Shown piece after piece: positions 14,203 to 50,954 of a DNA stretch of 64,000 nt. Under the pieces are notes generated by a model. The model was not told the origin of the DNA, searched no databases, and was given only the letters and a program-made list of their open reading frames with translations. Every line of letters begins with the position of its first letter. Position 1 is the stretch's first letter. This stretch comes from Rhodanobacteraceae bacterium. Its GTDB lineage: Bacteria > Pseudomonadota > Gammaproteobacteria > Xanthomonadales > Rhodanobacteraceae. Made by a program: the position numbers and the translations under genes. The stretch covers positions 3,548-67,547 of the forward strand of contig DASUJD010000058.1 in assembly GCA_036279455.1 (NCBI GenBank), read 5' to 3'.

Positions 14203-14236
14203 AGTGCTCATCAAACGCCCGATGTTTTACGCTCCT

Positions 14237-14299
14237 CCCGAGTCCCGAGTCCCGAGTCCCGAGTCCCGAGTCCCGAGTCCCGAGTCCCGAGTCCCGAGT
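14237..14299. repeat. Nine exact tandem copies of CCCGAGT (G-rich GGGACTC on the minus/transcribed-sense strand)
   Basis: Counted directly: 63 nt, no mismatch. Begins 1 nt after the TGA of the DUF4139 gene. Confidence 0.95.
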
Positions 14300-14300
14300 C

Positions 14301-15830: not shown

Positions 15831-17567
15831 TCAAGTCGAGGATTGCACGCTGTCGAGCAGCGCCGTGATGGCCTCGCTGTCGCGTGCGCGCAGCAGGCGT
15901 GGGGCCAACGCACGCAGCGCCCGGTAGTCACAATGCGACAGCGCGTCGCGTTGCGCCAGGATGCGGTCCGGCAGCATGCTGAAATCTTCGAGGCCCAGCG
16001 CAACCAGCACCGACGCGAATGTGGTGTCCCCGGCGATTTCTCCGCACAGGCATACCTCCTTGCGGGCCATCCGCGAGCGTCCAATCACGTATGCCAGCAT
16101 TCGCAAGACGGCCGGGTGCGCCGGCCGGTAGAGCTTGCCCAGCTGATCGTTGTTGCGATCAGCTGCCAGCACGTATTGGGTCAGATCGTTGCTGCCGATC
16201 GCCAGAAAGTCGGCGACTTCCAGCAATGCGCGCACGTTGATGGCAGCGGCCGGCACCTCGACCATCGCACCCAGCTCGAACTGGTCGGGAATCTCGTGAC
16301 CGGCCGTGCGCAGGTCGCGCGCGCATTCTTCCAGCAACCGCCGTACTTCGACCAGTTCGGCTGCGTCGGTGATCATCGGCACCAGGATGCGCAGTGGTCC
16401 GTAACAGCTCGCCCGCAGGATGGCGCGCAGCTGCGTCACCAACACGTCCAGATGTCGCAGCGACAGGCGCACGCCGCGTATGCCGAGCGCCGGGTTCGGT
16501 TCGGATGCCACCTCCAGGCCTGCGGCATCGGCCTTGTCGGCGCCGAGGTCGAGCGTGCGGATCGTCACCGGAAGCCCGCCGGCGCTCAGCACGGCGTCGC
16601 GATAGGCGGCAAGCTGTTGTTCCTCGTCCGGCAATCCGTCATGTGAGAGAAACAGGAATTCGGTGCGGTACAGGCCGATGCCTGCAACGCCGAGTCCGCG
16701 CGCACGTTCGATGTCTTCGGGTCGTTCGGCGTTGGCGAACAGGCGCAGCTTGTGGCCGTCGCGGGTCAGGGTGCGGGTGCCGGCCAGTTGCGCGAGGCGC
16801 TGCCCCTCGCGCATGGTTTCGCGTTGCCAGTTGCGGTATTGGGCAAGATCCTGCGCGGCGGGATGGACGATGATTTCACCGCGCACGCCGTCGACCAGCG
16901 CGAGATCGCCGTCGCGCAGATCCTCGAGCACGCCTTCCACGTTCACCAACATGGGCAGGTGCAGGCTGCGCGCGAGGATCGAACTGTGCGAGTAGGGGCT
17001 GCCGGAGCCGGCCGCCACCGCGAGGATGCCGTGGCTGGCCATCTGTGCCAGTTCACCGGGTGCCACGCTCTCGGTCACCAGGATTTCGCCCACGCGGGTC
17101 GCGAGTTTTTTTTCCTCGTTGCTGGCCTGGCGTGTCAGTGCGCTCTGCACGCGAGCGATCACATGATCGACGTCTTCGCCGCGACTGCGCAGATAAGGGT
17201 CATCCATCTTGTCGAACACCGCGACCAGACGGTCGCGCTGGGCCTTCAGCGCCGCCGCGGCGCGGTAGTGGCCCTTGCGGATCATCGCGCGCAAGCCCTC
17301 GATCAGCTCGGGATCGTCCAGCAATTGGGCGTGCGCGTCGATGAATTCGCCGACCTCGCGTGCCAGCGCGCCATGCAGCTTGCGGCGCAACTCGACCATG
17401 TCCTCGCGGGCCAGCGCGAAGGCACGCTCCAACCGCGCGATTTCGTCCTCGATTTCCGAATCGGGCAGTGGCGTGAAGTCGATGCTGAAGCGTGCCGGAT
17501 GCTCAAGACGCACGCGTCCGAGCGCCATTCCGGGCGCGGCGGGATTGCCCGTGAAGACGCGCCTCAT
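15831..17567 (-). CDS. ptsI: Phosphoenolpyruvate-protein phosphotransferase (PTS Enzyme I, no GAF domain)
   Basis: 578 aa. ...GSPYSHSSILARSL... phospho-His region and ...IGSNDLTQY... PEP-utilising C-terminal domain. Confidence 0.9.
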   Translation of the reverse strand: MRRVFTGNPAAPGMALGRVRLEHPARFSIDFTPLPDSEIEDEIARLERAFALAREDMVELRRKLHGALAREVGEFIDAHAQLLDDPELIEGLRAMIRKGHYRAAAALKAQRDRLVAVFDKMDDPYLRSRGEDVDHVIARVQSALTRQASNEEKKLATRVGEILVTESVAPGELAQMASHGILAVAAGSGSPYSHSSILARSLHLPMLVNVEGVLEDLRDGDLALVDGVRGEIIVHPAAQDLAQYRNWQRETMREGQRLAQLAGTRTLTRDGHKLRLFANAERPEDIERARGLGVAGIGLYRTEFLFLSHDGLPDEEQQLAAYRDAVLSAGGLPVTIRTLDLGADKADAAGLEVASEPNPALGIRGVRLSLRHLDVLVTQLRAILRASCYGPLRILVPMITDAAELVEVRRLLEECARDLRTAGHEIPDQFELGAMVEVPAAAINVRALLEVADFLAIGSNDLTQYVLAADRNNDQLGKLYRPAHPAVLRMLAYVIGRSRMARKEVCLCGEIAGDTTFASVLVALGLEDFSMLPDRILAQRDALSHCDYRALRALAPRLLRARDSEAITALLDSVQSST

Positions 17568-17833
17568 GCGCCCTCGTCGAACTTGCGATCGAACAAACGG
17601 GCGACCGCATCCAGTGCTTCGGCTTCGTCCGGACCGTCCACGCGCAGCGTGAGCGGCGTTCCGATGCCGGCCGCCAGCATCATCACGCCCATGATGCTCT
17701 TGGCGTTGACTTCGCGACCGCCGCCGATCAGCCAGATCGTGGATTTGAAGCCCTGCACCAGCTGCACCAGTTTCGCCGAGGCGCGCGCGTGCAGGCCGAG
17801 CTTGTTGCTGACCACGATTTCCTTTTCGATCAT
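17564..17833 (-). CDS. HPr-family phosphocarrier protein
   Basis: Start at MIEKEIVVSNKLGLHARASAKLV (HPr His-15 context). Overlaps the EI start by 4 nt. Confidence 0.85.
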   Translation of the reverse strand: MIEKEIVVSNKLGLHARASAKLVQLVQGFKSTIWLIGGGREVNAKSIMGVMMLAAGIGTPLTLRVDGPDEAEALDAVARLFDRKFDEGA

Positions 17834-17884
17834 CGGGACGTTCCGGGGCGGGAGTGATGACATCCCGCTACGTTACCAAAAGAA

Positions 17885-18079
17885 GGGACCTGGGACTGGG
17901 GACCAGGGGCCAGTCGAAAAAGAGGGTGGGGCAAGATGCAGCCATGTGCGCACCGGGACCAGGACATTGCGTGCCAGCTCCCGGAATCTCGTTTTGCTTC
18001 ATCTGGCCTGCGCATCGGGCGCCGGGTGCGAAAACGCCAAGCAGGTTACGCTCTTCCGGTCCCCGGTCCCCGGTCCCGG
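17885..18079. repeat. Heptamer-armed inverted-repeat element (degenerate copy), MITE/REP-like, no ORF
   Basis: Left arm GGGACCT GGGACTG GGGACCA GGGGCC. Right arm CCGGTCC x3 + CGG. The core shares collinear blocks with the nuoF-nuoG element. Confidence 0.75.
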
Positions 18080-18085
18080 CTCTCG

Positions 18086-18541
18086 TCACACCTTGTCGAT
18101 GCAAATGCCGCCCCGTCCACCGCTGGCGGCGACTTCGGCCAGTTCGTCAAGCGGTTTGTCAGGGTAGTTGAGCACCCTGAGCAGCATCGGCAGGTTCAGT
18201 CCCGACACGCAGCGCGCACGCACGCCGAGACCGGCGAGCTGGTTGGCGATGTTGCAGGGCGTGGAGCCGTACAGATCCGAAAGCACCAGTACACCGCCGC
18301 CATGGTCGAGCGTGCGCGCTGCGCGGGCAGCGGCCGGCAGCACGGCGCCGGGGTCATCGTCGGCGCCCATTTCCATCGCGTCGAGCCGGCACGGCATGTG
18401 CGGCATCACATGCCGGGCGGCAGTGATGAGCGCGCGGCCGATCTCCTCGTGCGTCAGCAGCAAAATGCCCGCCGTCGCGGTGGTCTGGTCTTGACGGAGT
18501 GCGGAAACGTTGGTCATGGGTGGAGATGGGATGGCAGTCAT
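18086..18541 (-). CDS. PTS EIIA component, mannose/fructose family
   Basis: 151 aa. ...GILLLTHEEIGRAL... with the His in the EIIA(Man) position. The start may instead be the internal MTNV (18517). Confidence 0.75.
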   Translation of the reverse strand: MTAIPSPPMTNVSALRQDQTTATAGILLLTHEEIGRALITAARHVMPHMPCRLDAMEMGADDDPGAVLPAAARAARTLDHGGGVLVLSDLYGSTPCNIANQLAGLGVRARCVSGLNLPMLLRVLNYPDKPLDELAEVAASGGRGGICIDKV

Positions 18542-47074: not shown

Positions 47075-48388
47075 ATGGCATACGGTCCCGAGCCCGCTGA
47101 ACACCAGGTCGTCTACACCACGCTCCATTTCGACGAGCCGTGGACGATCGAGAATTACCGCAAGACCGGCGGCTGGCAGGCGTGGGAGAAGATCCTTGCC
47201 GAAAAGACCGATCCGGCCTCGATCGTGGACGAGCTGAAGAAGAGTTCGCTGCGCGGACGCGGCGGCGCCGGCTTCCCGACCGGCATGAAATGGTCGTTCA
47301 TGCCGCGCAACGCGCCGGGCCAGAAATACATCCTGTGCAATTCGGATGAATCCGAACCCGGCACCTGCAAGGACCGCGACATCCTGCGCTTCAATCCGCA
47401 CGCGGTGCTGGAAGGCATCGCGATCGCCTGTTACGCGACGGGTTCCACCGTGGCCTACAACTATTTGCGCGGCGAGTTCCACCACGAACCTTTCGAGCAC
47501 ATCGAGCAGGCTCTGCACGAAGCGGAAGCCGCCGGGCTCCTGGGCACGAACATCAAGGGCAGCGGCATCGACGTCACGATCCACAACGCATTGGGTGCGG
47601 GTGCCTACATCTGCGGCGAGGAAACCGCGTTGATGGAATCGCTGGAAGGCAAGAAGGGCTGGCCGCGCTACAAGCCGCCGTTCCCCGCCAACTTCGGCCT
47701 GTACGGCCGGCCCAGCACCATCAACAACACCGAAACCTATGCGTCGGTGCCGGCGATCCTGCGCAAGGGCGCCGACTGGTTCTTGAACTTGGGCAAGCCC
47801 AACAATGGCGGTCCCAAGATTTTTTCGGTTTCGGGTCACGTCAACAAGCCGGGCAACTACGAAGTCCCCCTCGGCCTCCCGTTCGCGGAACTGCTCGAAA
47901 TGGCGGGTGGCGTGCGCAACGGCCACAAGCTGAAGGCGGTGATCCCGGGCGGCTCGTCGATGAAGATCCTGAAGGCCGACAAGATGCTGGAATGCAACAT
48001 GGACTTCGACTCGCTGCGTGCCGCGGGATCGGGTCTGGGTTCGGGCGCCGTGATCGTGATGGACGAGACGACGTGCATGGTGCGCGCTTGCGAGCGCATC
48101 GCGCGCTTCTATCACATGGAATCCTGCGGCCAGTGCACACCGTGCCGCGAGGGCACCGGCTGGATGCACCGCGTGTTGACCCGCATCGTCCATGGCGGCG
48201 GCACACCGGAAGATCTGCATCGCCTGAAAGCCGTCGCCGGCCAGATCGAAGGCCACACCATTTGCGCCTTCGGTGAAGCGGCGGCGTGGCCGGTACAGGC
48301 CTTCCTCGCCAATTTCTGGGACGAGTTCGAGTACTACTGCAAGAACGGGCGTTCGATGGTGGATTCACGCGTGGAGATTGCGGCATGA
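47075..48388 (+). CDS. nuoF: NADH-quinone oxidoreductase subunit F
   Basis: 437 aa. ...GRGGAGFPTG.KWSF... (FMN/NADH site), ...ESCGQCTPCREG.... Confidence 0.95.
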   Translation: MAYGPEPAEHQVVYTTLHFDEPWTIENYRKTGGWQAWEKILAEKTDPASIVDELKKSSLRGRGGAGFPTGMKWSFMPRNAPGQKYILCNSDESEPGTCKDRDILRFNPHAVLEGIAIACYATGSTVAYNYLRGEFHHEPFEHIEQALHEAEAAGLLGTNIKGSGIDVTIHNALGAGAYICGEETALMESLEGKKGWPRYKPPFPANFGLYGRPSTINNTETYASVPAILRKGADWFLNLGKPNNGGPKIFSVSGHVNKPGNYEVPLGLPFAELLEMAGGVRNGHKLKAVIPGGSSMKILKADKMLECNMDFDSLRAAGSGLGSGAVIVMDETTCMVRACERIARFYHMESCGQCTPCREGTGWMHRVLTRIVHGGGTPEDLHRLKAVAGQIEGHTICAFGEAAAWPVQAFLANFWDEFEYYCKNGRSMVDSRVEIAA

Positions 48389-48397
48389 ATAACTTCA

Positions 48398-48540
48398 GGG
48401 ACCGGGGACCGGGGACCGGGGACCGGAGCTGCCGTGATGCGTACGCGCACTCGTGGTTGGTGCGCTTGATACATGGCATCAATAAAAAATCTGCCAGCTT
48501 GCGTGACTTTGCCGGTCCCCGGTCCCCGGTCCCCGGTCCC
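48398..48540. repeat. Heptamer-armed inverted-repeat element: (GGGACCG)4 - 87-nt core - (CGGTCCC)4, MITE/REP-like, no ORF
   Basis: Counted directly. Arms 48398-48425 and 48513-48540 are exact reverse complements (28 nt). Confidence 0.9.
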
Positions 48541-48551
48541 GGAGTTTTCGC

Positions 48552-50954
48552 ATGAGCGCCCAACCGAAAGACACCGCTCCGCCCGTGGAGATGGTCGAGT
48601 TCGAGATCGACGGCCATCCGGTCAGCGCGCCCAAGGGCTCGACGATCATCCAGGCCACCGATGCCGCGAAGATTCCGGTGCCACGTTTTTGCTATCACGA
48701 AAAGTTGCCGATCGCCGCCAATTGCAGGCAATGCATGGTGGAAGTGGAGATGGGTGGCAAGCCGGTGCCGAAGCCGCAGCCTGCCTGCGCGACTCCCGTC
48801 GCGGCGGGCATGAAGGTCTACACGCGCTCGCCGAATGCCATGAAGTGGCAGCGCAACACGATGGAGTTCCTGCTGATCAACCATCCGCTGGATTGCCCGA
48901 TCTGCGATCAGGGCGGCGAGTGCGAGCTGCAGGATGTTTCGATGGGTTATGGACGCTCGGTGACGCGCTTCACCGAGCGCAAGCGCAGCGTGACCGACGA
49001 AAACATTGGTCCGCTGGTTGCGACCGAGATGACCCGCTGCATCCACTGCACACGTTGCGTGCGTTTCGTGGGCGAGATCGCGGGCACCCATGAGCTTGGC
49101 GACATGAGCCGCGGCGACAGCCACGTGATCGGCACCTACATCGGCCGCACCATCAAGTCCGAGCTGTCCGGCAACGTGATTGACGTGTGTCCGGTCGGCG
49201 CGCTCACCGACAAGGTGTTCCAGTTCAAGGCGCGCGCGTGGGAACTGATCGCCAAGCCGTCGATCGGCTACCACGATGCGCTGGGTTCCAACCTGTGGCT
49301 GCATACCAAGTACGGGCAGACGCTGCGTGCCGTGCCGCGCGACAACGAAGCCATCAACGAATGCTGGTTGTCCGACCGCGACCGCTACAGCCACCAGGGT
49401 TTGTACGCGGAGGATCGCGCGCAGAGGCCGATGATCCGAAAGGGCGGCGAGCTGGTCGAAGTCGAATGGGATGAAGCCATCGCGTTCGTCGCGGACGGTT
49501 TGAAGAAGGTCGGCGGCGATGTGGCCGCGCTGGTCGCTTCGATGGCATCGTGCGAGGAAGGTGCGCTGCTTGCGCAATTGTTGCGCGGGCTCGGCAGCGG
49601 GCGCATCGACCATCGCCTGCGCGTGCAGGACTTCAGCGACGGTGGTCCGTCCGGTGCCGCATTCGAAATGCCGGTGGCGGACGTTGGCAAGGTATCGGCG
49701 GCACTGATCATCGGCTGCAATCCGCGCCATGAAATGCCGCTGCTTGGCCATCGGCTGCGCCACGCCAGCCGCCACGACGCGGCGAAGCATCCGGCATCGA
49801 ATCCGGCGCACTACGATATTTCCGCGGTGCAGGGCGCGAAGATCCATGCGATCAACCCCGTGCACTTCGATTTCAACTTCGACCTCGCCGGCGAAGTCGC
49901 GGTGGCGCCGCAACATCTGGTGGATGCTACGTTGCGGATGGCGAAGGGGTCGGGCGTGTCGCTGGACGAGCATGCGTTGGCCGATGCCGTCGCTGCGGCC
50001 CCTGATGACGCCGATGCGCGCTCGTGGGCAGATGCGTTGCGCAATGCGGCATCCTCGGTGGTAATCCTGGGCGACGCGGCCACCCAACATCCGCAGGCGT
50101 CATGGCTGCGCGTGCTGGCGCGCGGCATCGCCAGGGCCACCGGTAGTGCGTTCAACGAATTGCCGTCGGGCGCCAACGCCGTCGGCTTGGCACGTGTGGG
50201 TGCGCAGTCGCCCGGTGGGGCGAAAGCGATACTGGAAAATGCGCCGAAGGCGTTGATTACCTGGCAAACCGGCCCCCACGATGCGTTTTCGCCGGTCGCC
50301 TACGACAAGGCCAGCGAGGCTGCGGAGTTTTACGTCCACGCGGGCGCCTACGTCTGCGAAGGCGCCAGGCACACCGCCGATGCCGTGCTGCCACTGGGCT
50401 TGCCTCCGGAAATCGACGGCACCTACGTGAACGTCGATGGCGTCGTACAGGTAATCGCGGCGGGTTCGACCTTGCCGGGCGATGCGCGGCCGGGCTGGAA
50501 GGTATTGCGCGCGTTGGGGGCGGCGCTGGGCGTGAAAGGGTTCGACTTCTCTGACATCGGTGAGGTGCGTGACGCTGTGGGGGACGTGTCGGGACCGGGG
50601 ACCGGGGACCAGGAATCGGGGCAGCGATTGCCGACGCGTACATCGATACCGAATGGCATGGTGACGCGCGTCGCCACGGTCGGCATCTACCGCACCGATG
50701 CGGTGGTACGTCGCGCCAAGGCGCTGCAGGCGCACCCGCTGAATCGCGCGCCGGCCTTGCGCATCTGTGCGGACGATGCGCGTGCACTGGCGCTGCTGAG
50801 CGGCATCAAGGCCGACGTCAATGGCGTGCAATTGATGGTGGTTGTCGATGCCGCGGTGCCCAAAGGCTGCGCCTGGATCGAAGCGGGACACGCCGGCACC
50901 GGATCGCTGCCGCCGTACGGCGCGGCGCTGACCATCAAGGCAGTGGGCGCATGA
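48552..50954 (+). CDS. nuoG: NADH-quinone oxidoreductase subunit G
   Basis: 800 aa. N-terminal 2Fe-2S/4Fe-4S Cys clusters (...[19 protein letters not shown]..., ...[18 protein letters not shown]...). Confidence 0.95.
50591..50611. repeat. Three heptamers (GGGACCG GGGACCG GGGACCA) in frame inside nuoG
   Basis: Read directly: 21 nt translated as GPGTGDQ. Confidence 0.85.

What the first reader, a model, noticed from the sequence alone, without database searches (positions are those of the whole stretch)
17885..18079. Second, decayed copy of the heptamer-armed element between PTS EIIA and HPr, in the same orientation relative to host transcription
The left arm is GGGACCT GGGACTG GGGACCA GGGGCC and the right arm is CCGGTCC x3 + CGG, giving imperfect inverted arrays. 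The ~145-nt core shares collinear blocks with the reverse complement of the nuoF-nuoG core. GATGCAGCCATGTGCGCACC (17935-17954) matches the reverse complement of 48459-48480 (GATGCCATGTATCAAGCGCACC), and GCCAGCTCC (17973-17981) matches the reverse complement of 48426-48434 (GGCAGCTCC). This operon is on the minus strand and nuo is on the plus strand, so both copies have the same polarity relative to the mRNA that carries them. With only two copies this is weak, but it hints at RNA-level selection or oriented insertion. The right arm ends 6 nt from the EIIA stop codon.
Basis: partly seen in the sequence, partly recalled or inferred. Interest (0 to 1): 0.6.

Follow-up and report, generated by a model that had tools for sequence, protein, structure and literature searches.

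The report
Heptamer-repeat hairpin between EIIA and HPr
The spacer between the PTS genes for EIIA and HPr holds two inverted runs of a G-rich 7-base repeat that can pair into a long hairpin; this repeat class was described in Xanthomonas in 2015, and the copy is not related through its middle part to the one between nuoF and nuoG.

Summary
The arms are real. 17885-17913 is an imperfect (GGGGACC)4 and 18056-18079 is a perfect (GGTCCCC)3. The right arm ends 6 nt from the EIIA stop codon.

The claimed core similarity to the nuoF-nuoG copy is no better than chance. So the "same polarity" argument has no basis.

The host is a Rhodanobacteraceae genome (2.38 Mb, 72% complete). It carries about 100 such arrays and 21 convergent inverted pairs, with no divergent pairs. 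Every core examined is unique, and there are no target-site duplications. Two pairs lie in frame inside the E2 and PolA linkers.

This matches the G-rich heptamer repeats and "inverted repeat pairs" of Xanthomonas (Rehm 2015). The unit here is a lineage-specific variant. The scan reached the same class for the nuoF-nuoG copy on this window.

New here: the EIIA-HPr spacer carries such a hairpin in over half of 47 relatives. At least six different repeat units are used, and the two arms co-vary. So this is an old hairpin site whose arms get rewritten, not a transposed copy.

Function is unproven. I favour DNA-level repeat dynamics, with a long stem in the transcript as a by-product or a mild modulator.

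The parts
18056..18079 (-). 5' arm as read in the PTS mRNA (minus strand): GGGACC GGGGACC GGGGACC GG, three perfect units. It starts 6 nt after the EIIA stop codon.
18046..18055 (-). Sub-terminal motif AAGAGCGTAA, within GGAAGAGCGTAACC at 18044-18057, directly inside the 5' arm. The same motif follows many other arrays in this genome and the orthologous arrays in relatives.
   Evidence: It matches at 7/10 or better in 13 of 57 array flanks, against 2.4% of background 22-mers.
17914..18055 (.). Unique 142-nt core. It has no homologue in the genome, in orthologous spacers or in 40 same-genus genomes. It contains one repeat-like remnant, GGGACCAGGAC, at about 17956-17966.
17885..17913 (+). Imperfect arm. 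It is G-rich on the plus strand, which is the template strand for the PTS genes, and has four G-tracts (GGGACCT GGGACTG GGGACCA GGGGCC). In the mRNA it is the C-rich 3' arm. Its variant pattern CTGGTCCCCAGTCCC is shared with relative L023.
17864..17882 (-). Conserved leader TTTTGGTAACGTAGCGGG just upstream of HPr. It is present in all relatives, whether or not they have a hairpin. The 3' arm abuts its T-run.
18086..18541 (-). EIIA (mannose/fructose type) gene, upstream neighbour.
17564..17863 (-). HPr gene, downstream neighbour. The Pfam HPr match starts at residue 12 of this longest ORF, next to an in-frame ATG (MIEKE...).

Best explanation
The feature is the local member of a genome-wide family of G-rich heptamer microsatellites that occur as convergent inverted pairs. 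It is the Rhodanobacteraceae counterpart of the Xanthomonas GGGAATC repeats. It is not a transposed copy of the nuoF-nuoG element.

Shown: the EIIA-HPr spacer has carried a hairpin in many relatives, and the sequence of the arms has been replaced repeatedly while the two arms stayed complementary.

Inferred mechanism: each arm grows and shrinks by slipped-strand mispairing. New unit variants spread along an arm. The two arms are kept complementary by intramolecular template switching or repair within the hairpin or cruciform (quasi-palindrome correction). Arrays drift toward whichever unit is common in that genome, possibly through short-patch conversion between dispersed arrays.

Inferred consequence: the polycistronic transcript carries a 27-30-bp stem. 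It runs from just after the EIIA stop codon to the U-run about 17 nt before the upstream candidate ATG of the HPr ORF. The template DNA strand upstream of ptsH carries a four-tract quadruplex-capable array. Any effect on expression is probably mild, such as a barrier to RNA processing, stability or read-through.
For: Repeat family. There are 35 perfect period-7 arrays of at least 21 nt, against 0-9 for periods 5, 6, 8, 9 and 10. Two units dominate: GGGGACC (18) and GGGACTC (13).

Pairing. Of 23 neighbouring array pairs within 300 nt, 21 are convergent, 2 are tandem and none is divergent. Arm unit types match in 20 of 21.

Not a mobile unit. Cores are unique and there are no target-site duplications. 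In E2 the 'core' is the native subunit-binding domain, and in PolA the pair sits in a domain linker, both in frame. So arms can bracket native DNA.

Published class. The paper reports four-unit preference, location after stop codons on the sense strand or before ORFs on the antisense strand, and 70-75 convergent inverted pairs per Xanthomonas genome. This genome shows the same placement and a mode near four tracts.

Orthologous spacers. Of 47 relatives, 27 have arm duplexes of -33 kcal/mol or stronger. Units seen include GGGGACC, GGGACTC, GGGACCC, GGGAATC, GGGAGAC, GGGAGCA and GCGGTCA, and some loci have a plain palindrome. Matched arms pair at a mean of -36.0 kcal/mol against -26.3 for mismatched partners.

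Covariation over 22 loci. 76% of cells are paired against 68.6% in shuffles (0 of 500 shuffles reach this). The true register is best. All 10 non-anchored pairs show changes on both sides.

Same core, different arms. L023 has GGGGACC-type arms and L031 has GGGACTC-type arms around the same core. PolA linkers in same-genus relatives encode GGGACTC-type arrays where this genome has GGGGACC-type.

Unit repertoire by genome (pattern matches). G000: GGGGACC 46, GGGACTC 32, GGGAATC 2. G031: 0, 43, 57. G053: 17, 53, 0. About half of 61 family genomes have none of the three.

Folding. The arms pair in the minimum-energy fold of either strand.
Against: No step of the slippage, template-switch or conversion mechanism is observed directly. 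Local slippage alone does not explain why dispersed loci share one unit per genome. There is a counter-example: G067 is rich in GGGGACC arrays, but its PTS arm uses CTCACCC. About 12 of 47 relatives have a weak hairpin or none, so the stem is dispensable. In the orthologous set G.U pairs outnumber A.C mismatches 24 to 12 in the sense orientation. That leans weakly toward RNA-level tolerance and against a purely DNA-level view. Whole-spacer fold z-scores are modest (-1.4 and -2.0).
Confidence: 0.55

Rival explanations
1. Selected intercistronic RNA element. The long stem, followed by the U-run, would act in the hprK-rapZ-EIIA-HPr-EI transcript as a partial terminator, an RNase III site or a 3'-end protector. 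This would uncouple EIIA from HPr/EI expression.
For: A hairpin occupies this spacer in more than half of 47 relatives despite complete turnover of the arm sequence, and the arms co-vary. The stem base pairs the bases just after the stop codon with GGCTT at the start of the T-run. L010, L012 and L018 carry a plain 19-bp palindrome plus T-run that looks like a terminator. G.U pairs outnumber A.C mismatches 24 to 12 in the sense orientation.
Against: The T-run belongs to a leader that is conserved even where no hairpin exists (L002, L014, L028, L029, L032). The loop is 142 nt, and the consensus terminator scan finds nothing. Within this genome the arms fold better as antisense RNA in 12 of 15 pairs. 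The same paired arrays occur inside coding linkers, where RNA punctuation makes no sense. The hairpin has been lost in about a quarter of relatives.
Confidence: 0.25
2. Quadruplex-based regulation. The four-tract G-rich array on the template strand upstream of ptsH, or the G-rich RNA arm after EIIA, would fold into a G-quadruplex that modulates transcription or translation.
For: Arrays genome-wide drop sharply after four period-7 G-tracts: 3 tracts 58, 4 tracts 39, 5 tracts 5. The published class forms G4 in vitro and shows the same four-unit preference. The plus-strand arm at 17885-17913 has four G-tracts.
Against: The mRNA-sense arm has only three full tracts. Orthologous arms built from GCGGTCA or CTCACCC units, or from plain palindromes, cannot form canonical G4 yet keep the hairpin layout. 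What is conserved is arm complementarity, not G-tracts.
Confidence: 0.12
3. Miniature transposable element. Arms plus core would move as one unit, and the PTS copy would be an old, decayed insertion oriented relative to transcription.
For: There are terminal inverted arms, sizes of 55-290 nt and many copies. At two former ATGA overlap junctions the bases CATGA(G) are duplicated on both sides of the element (nuoF-G and C3:22929).
Against: No two cores are alike, even between copies with perfect arms. Flanking direct repeats average 2.6 nt, the same as the null. In E2 the core is a native protein domain. The PTS arms are orthologous to those of L023, including shared variant units. No transposase is associated: the three Y1_Tnp genes are flanked by GTAG-type REPs instead.
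Confidence: 0.06

Closest known systems
G-rich heptameric repeats of Xanthomonas and Nostoc (GGGAATC, GGGGA(C/T)T), including their 'inverted repeat pairs' (Rehm et al. 2015, PLoS One, PMC4692102)
   Same: A 7-nt unit with a G3-4 tract. Arrays centred on four units. Placement just after stop codons on the sense strand or just before ORFs on the antisense strand. Frequent convergent pairs. Same bacterial order. GGGAATC arrays themselves occur in sister genomes.
   Different: The unit here is GGGGACC, with GGGACTC as a second type, in Rhodanobacteraceae. The paper reports that pairs are usually preserved between two Xanthomonas species. The passages retrieved (the abstract and 12 of 19 keyword matches; the paper was not read in full) say nothing about unit replacement at orthologous sites, arm covariation or in-frame pairs in essential proteins.
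REPINs / BIMEs (REP doublets mobilised by RAYT transposases; Bertels & Rainey 2011, PMC3116915, abstract only seen)
   Same: Dispersed, lineage-specific short repeats that occur as inverted doublets forming long hairpins in intergenic DNA.
   Different: REP units are themselves palindromic with a GTAG head, and the cognate RAYT gene is flanked by its own REPs. Here the arms are tandem heptamers, and the genome's RAYT-like genes are flanked by other repeats.
TAACTGA heptamer direct repeats of Beggiatoaceae (PMC4679880, abstract only seen)
   Same: Abundant intergenic heptamer arrays for which a post-transcriptional role has been proposed. The Parabeggiatoa EIIA-HPr spacer (L054) also carries AT-rich inverted heptamer arrays.
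   Different: Different unit. Mostly direct arrays rather than inverted ones. A distant lineage.

Membership tests
G-rich heptameric SSRs (Rehm 2015 class) | Tandem 7-nt unit containing a G3-4 tract | tested here: met
G-rich heptameric SSRs (Rehm 2015 class) | Strong genome-wide enrichment with a preference for about four units | tested here: met
   35 perfect period-7 arrays against 0-9 for other periods. Tract counts are 58, 39 and 5 for 3, 4 and 5 tracts. This copy has 4 tracts in one arm and 3 in the other.
G-rich heptameric SSRs (Rehm 2015 class) | Located within about 50 nt after a stop codon (G-strand sense) or before an ORF (G-strand antisense) | tested here: met
   6 nt after the EIIA stop and about 20 nt before the HPr ORF. 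The same pattern holds genome-wide on a crude gene map.
G-rich heptameric SSRs (Rehm 2015 class) | Convergent inverted pairs | tested here: met
   21 convergent, 0 divergent
G-rich heptameric SSRs (Rehm 2015 class) | Consensus unit GGGNATC | tested here: not met
   The unit is GGGGACC or GGGACTC. GGGAATC gives only 2 pattern matches here but 57 in same-genus G031. This copy is therefore a unit variant of the class.
G-rich heptameric SSRs (Rehm 2015 class) | G-quadruplex formation in vitro | not testable with these tools
   Needs CD or melting experiments on (GGGGACC)4
MITE | Copies share internal sequence | tested here: not met
MITE | Target-site duplications | tested here: not met
   Mean flanking direct repeat is 2.6 nt, the same as the null. 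None at the PTS copy.
MITE | Terminal inverted repeats | tested here: met
REPIN/RAYT system | Cognate RAYT gene flanked by the same repeat | tested here: not met
   The three Y1_Tnp genes are flanked by GTAG-type or TGTAGGAGC-type REPs, not by heptamers.
Intrinsic terminator | GC-rich stem with a short loop, followed immediately by a U-run | tested here: inconclusive
   A stem and TTCTTTTGG are present. But the loop is 142 nt, the consensus scan finds no site, and the T-run is conserved without the stem in some relatives.
Rfam RNA families | Match to a curated covariance model | tested here: not met
   The only hits lie well below the gathering scores and inside the flanking genes, not in the spacer.

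The most novel reading that the evidence does not exclude
The dispersed heptamer arrays could be rewritten genome-wide by an active, lineage-specific process, such as a dedicated enzyme or a conversion system. That process would install matching inverted arrays around arbitrary native DNA, even in frame in the PolA and E2 linkers, and would periodically switch the unit at many orthologous sites at once.
Probability: 0.13. Interest if true: 0.75.

Novelty: new member of a known kind. Interest (0 to 1): 0.3.

Why it matters
On its own this copy is ordinary. It extends a repeat class described in 2015, whose function is still unknown, to another family of the same order, with a new unit.

The comparative picture gives that open question something testable. 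The same intergenic site keeps a hairpin while both arms switch repeat unit together. Sister genomes of one genus use different units genome-wide. That argues for a homogenising process acting on arm complementarity, rather than for transposition of a fixed element or for G-quadruplexes as the conserved feature.

Tried and rejected
1. Core homology between the PTS and nuo copies: at chance level.
2. Core homology to anything in the genome, to 64 related loci, to 11 orthologous cores or to 40 same-genus genomes: none. One marginal hit (L013, z = 3.3) does not survive multiple testing.
3. Mobile-element reading: no target-site duplications.
4. RAYT association: the Y1_Tnp genes are flanked by other REP families.
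5. Known RNA family: none.
6. Sigma-70 promoter or canonical terminator in the spacer: none.
7. Orientation test using the sub-terminal motif: no bias, and the nuo copy lacks the motif.
8. GCGGTCA arrays as a genome-wide family in the L040/L041 genomes: mostly confined to the PTS locus.
10. My reversed-genome control for tract counts was uninformative, because the pattern is symmetric under reversal.
11. My gene map is a crude codon-usage caller covering about 80% of the genome, with over-long ORF starts. Distances to start codons are therefore approximate.

Full report
**What is at the site.** The plus strand reads GGGACCT GGGACTG GGGACCA GGGGCC at 17885-17913 and CCGGTCC x3 CGG at 18056-18079. 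Tandem Repeats Finder reports period 7 for both: 4.3 copies at 73% matches, and 3.1 copies at 100%. A two-unit pattern with up to 2 mismatches occurs 12 times in the window against 0.78 expected. The element fills the spacer between an EIIA-man gene (18086-18541, minus strand) and HPr (17564-17863, minus strand). These lie in an hprK-rapZ-EIIA-HPr-EI cluster.

**The claimed core similarity.** The quoted blocks exist. However, the best local alignment of the 142-nt core to the reverse complement of the 85-nt nuoF-nuoG core scores 15. Dinucleotide shuffles average 15.4 (sd 2.3), and 597 of 1000 reach that score. The direct orientation scores 16. The core has no significant match elsewhere in its own genome, in 64 related loci or in 40 same-genus genomes. 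The nuo core is equally unique.

**Genome-wide census.** The window lies in a 2.38-Mb, 106-contig, 64% GC assembly that is 72% complete.
- It has 35 perfect period-7 arrays of at least 21 nt, against 0-9 for periods 5, 6, 8, 9 and 10. The units are GGGGACC (18) and GGGACTC (13).
- With looser matching there are 101 arrays. Of 23 neighbouring pairs within 300 nt, 21 are convergent, 2 are tandem and none is divergent. Arm types match in 20 of 21. Cores are 20-258 nt long, and 11 of the 21 fall between 81 and 105 nt.
- All 17 cores examined are unique.
- Flanking direct repeats are no longer than in a null pairing.
- On a crude gene map the arrays hug gene ends. The G-strand is sense 2-20 nt after stop codons, or antisense just before start codons.
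- Counts of period-7 G-tracts fall from 58 (three tracts) to 39 (four) to 5 (five).

**Arms can bracket native DNA.** Two pairs lie in frame inside essential genes. In the E2 acyltransferase the arms encode PGTGDRGP and GPRSPVPGP on either side of the native subunit-binding domain. In PolA the same peptides flank the linker between the 5'-nuclease and 3'-5'-exonuclease domains. Same-genus relatives carry arrays at the same positions, and more distant relatives do not. This rules out an arms-plus-core unit as the general explanation.

**What is known.** Rehm et al. 2015 (PMC4692102) describe GGGAATC repeats in Xanthomonas. The features they report are:
- preference for four units;
- quadruplex formation in vitro;
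- location within 50 bp after stop codons on the sense strand or before ORFs on the antisense strand;
- 70 and 75 cases of two repeat sites in convergent orientation, which they call inverted repeats able to form stem-loops or cruciforms, and which are usually preserved between species.

The host here is a Rhodanobacteraceae bacterium of the same order. The feature meets every sequence-level criterion of that class except the exact unit. An earlier follow-up in this scan reached the same class for the nuoF-nuoG copy. I read the paper and repeated the census independently.

**The orthologous spacer.** I extracted the EIIA-HPr spacer from 47 relatives.
- Its length ranges from 40 to 571 nt.
- All spacers end in the conserved leader TTTTGGTAACGTAGCGG before HPr.
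- Most begin, right after the stop codon, with a G-rich heptamer array followed by GGAAGAGCGTAAC-like bases. They end with the complementary C-rich array abutting the T-run.
- The units differ between genomes: GGGGACC, GGGACTC, GGGACCC, GGGAATC, GGGAGAC, GGGAGCA, GCGGTCA and CTCACCC. Three loci have a plain 19-bp palindrome.
- Within one genus the locus uses GGGGACC (this genome), GGGAATC (G031), GGGACTC (G069, G071) and CTCACCC (G067).
- Matched 5' and 3' segments pair at a mean of -36.0 kcal/mol, against -26.3 for mismatched partners. Of the 47 loci, 27 reach -33 or stronger, and about 12 have little or no stem.
- In an anchored alignment of 22 loci, 76% of cells pair against 68.6% in shuffles (0 of 500 reach this). 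The true register beats all slides. All ten non-anchored pairs show double changes. The tool warns that related sequences can inflate such scores.
- L023 and L031 share the same core but have GGGGACC-type and GGGACTC-type arms respectively. L023's arms match the window's arms down to the variant units CTGGTCCCCAGTCCC.

So the PTS copy is an old, orthologous hairpin site whose arms are rewritten, not a copy of the nuo element.

**Unit turnover.** Pattern counts for GGGGACC / GGGACTC / GGGAATC are 46/32/2 in this genome, 0/43/57 in same-genus G031 and 17/53/0 in G053. They are patchy or zero across 58 other family genomes. Dispersed arrays therefore change in concert within lineages. Local slippage alone does not explain this. 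G067 is a partial counter-example.

**Orientation and RNA-level selection.**
- The sub-terminal motif AAGAGCGTAA is enriched next to arrays: 13 of 57 flanks at 7/10 or better, against 2.4% of background. It shows no bias relative to transcription and is absent from the nuo copy.
- The arms pair in minimum-energy folds of both strands. Whole-spacer z-scores are -1.4 and -2.0.
- Within this genome, 12 of 15 pairs have a more stable arm duplex as antisense RNA.
- In the orthologous set, G.U pairs outnumber A.C mismatches 24 to 12 in the sense orientation.

These two results conflict and both come from small samples. There is no Rfam match and no consensus promoter or terminator. The three RAYT-like genes are flanked by other REP families.

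**Verdict.** This is a real, non-random structure and a new member, with a unit variant, of a known repeat class. The specific claims of core homology and shared polarity fail. I think the most likely mechanism is DNA-level repeat dynamics that preserve arm complementarity, with a long stem in the transcript as a by-product or mild modulator. A selected intercistronic RNA role remains a live rival.

Noticed in passing
G000:C34:28128-28352 and G000:C6:50909-51052 (outside the window): In-frame convergent heptamer pairs sit inside the E2 acyltransferase and PolA linkers. They encode PGTGDRGP ... GPRSPVPGP. In E2 they bracket the native subunit-binding domain. Same-genus relatives have arrays at the same places, some of the GGGACTC type (SRDSGLG ... 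ESRVPSP).
   Followed up: partly
genome-wide, e.g. G000:C92:3660-3790, C28:7298-7430, C5:10376-10500: A second dispersed nested-palindrome family, CGTCATTCCGGGGCC...GGAACCCGGAATCCA ... TGGATTCCGG...CCGGAATGACG, has many copies. It sits between the heptamer arms in many relatives' PTS spacers. The junction 'array-GGAAGAGCGTAACAA-N3-6-CGTCATTCCGG' recurs at six loci in this genome.
   Followed up: partly
window 48383-48388 and 48550-48555; also G000:C3:22929-23089: GCATGA is duplicated on both sides of the nuoF-nuoG element, and CATGAG on both sides of the C3 element. This looks like a former ATGA stop/start overlap that was duplicated so both genes stay intact.
   Followed up: partly
G000, 15 inverted pairs between co-directional genes: The arm duplex is more stable as antisense RNA than as sense RNA in 12 of 15 pairs. 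This may reflect a strand-asymmetric mutation bias. It is unexplained.
   Followed up: no
G000, 21 convergent pairs: Core lengths cluster at 81-105 nt (11 of 21, three of them exactly 81), although the core sequences are unrelated. This is unexplained.
   Followed up: no
window 14236-14300: The (TCCCGAG)9 array starts 1 nt after a stop codon. On its G-strand it is followed by GGGAGGAGCGTAAAAC, the same sub-terminal motif as in the PTS copy.
   Followed up: partly
G000:C30:16880-17503 and C80:47731-48315: Two RAYT-like Y1 transposase genes are flanked by GTAGGTTGGGGTGAGCG...CGAACCCCAAC-type REP arrays, which is a classical REP/RAYT arrangement.
   Followed up: partly
L054 (Candidatus Parabeggiatoa), EIIA-HPr spacer: The 723-nt AT-rich spacer carries inverted heptamer arrays (GGTTAAT ... 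ATTAACC) and a CGCTATT array at the same gene junction in a distant lineage.
   Followed up: no
L035 and L040: Both loci map to one genome handle (G001), yet they carry different PTS loci with different repeat units. That MAG is probably mixed, or it has two copies of the locus.
   Followed up: no
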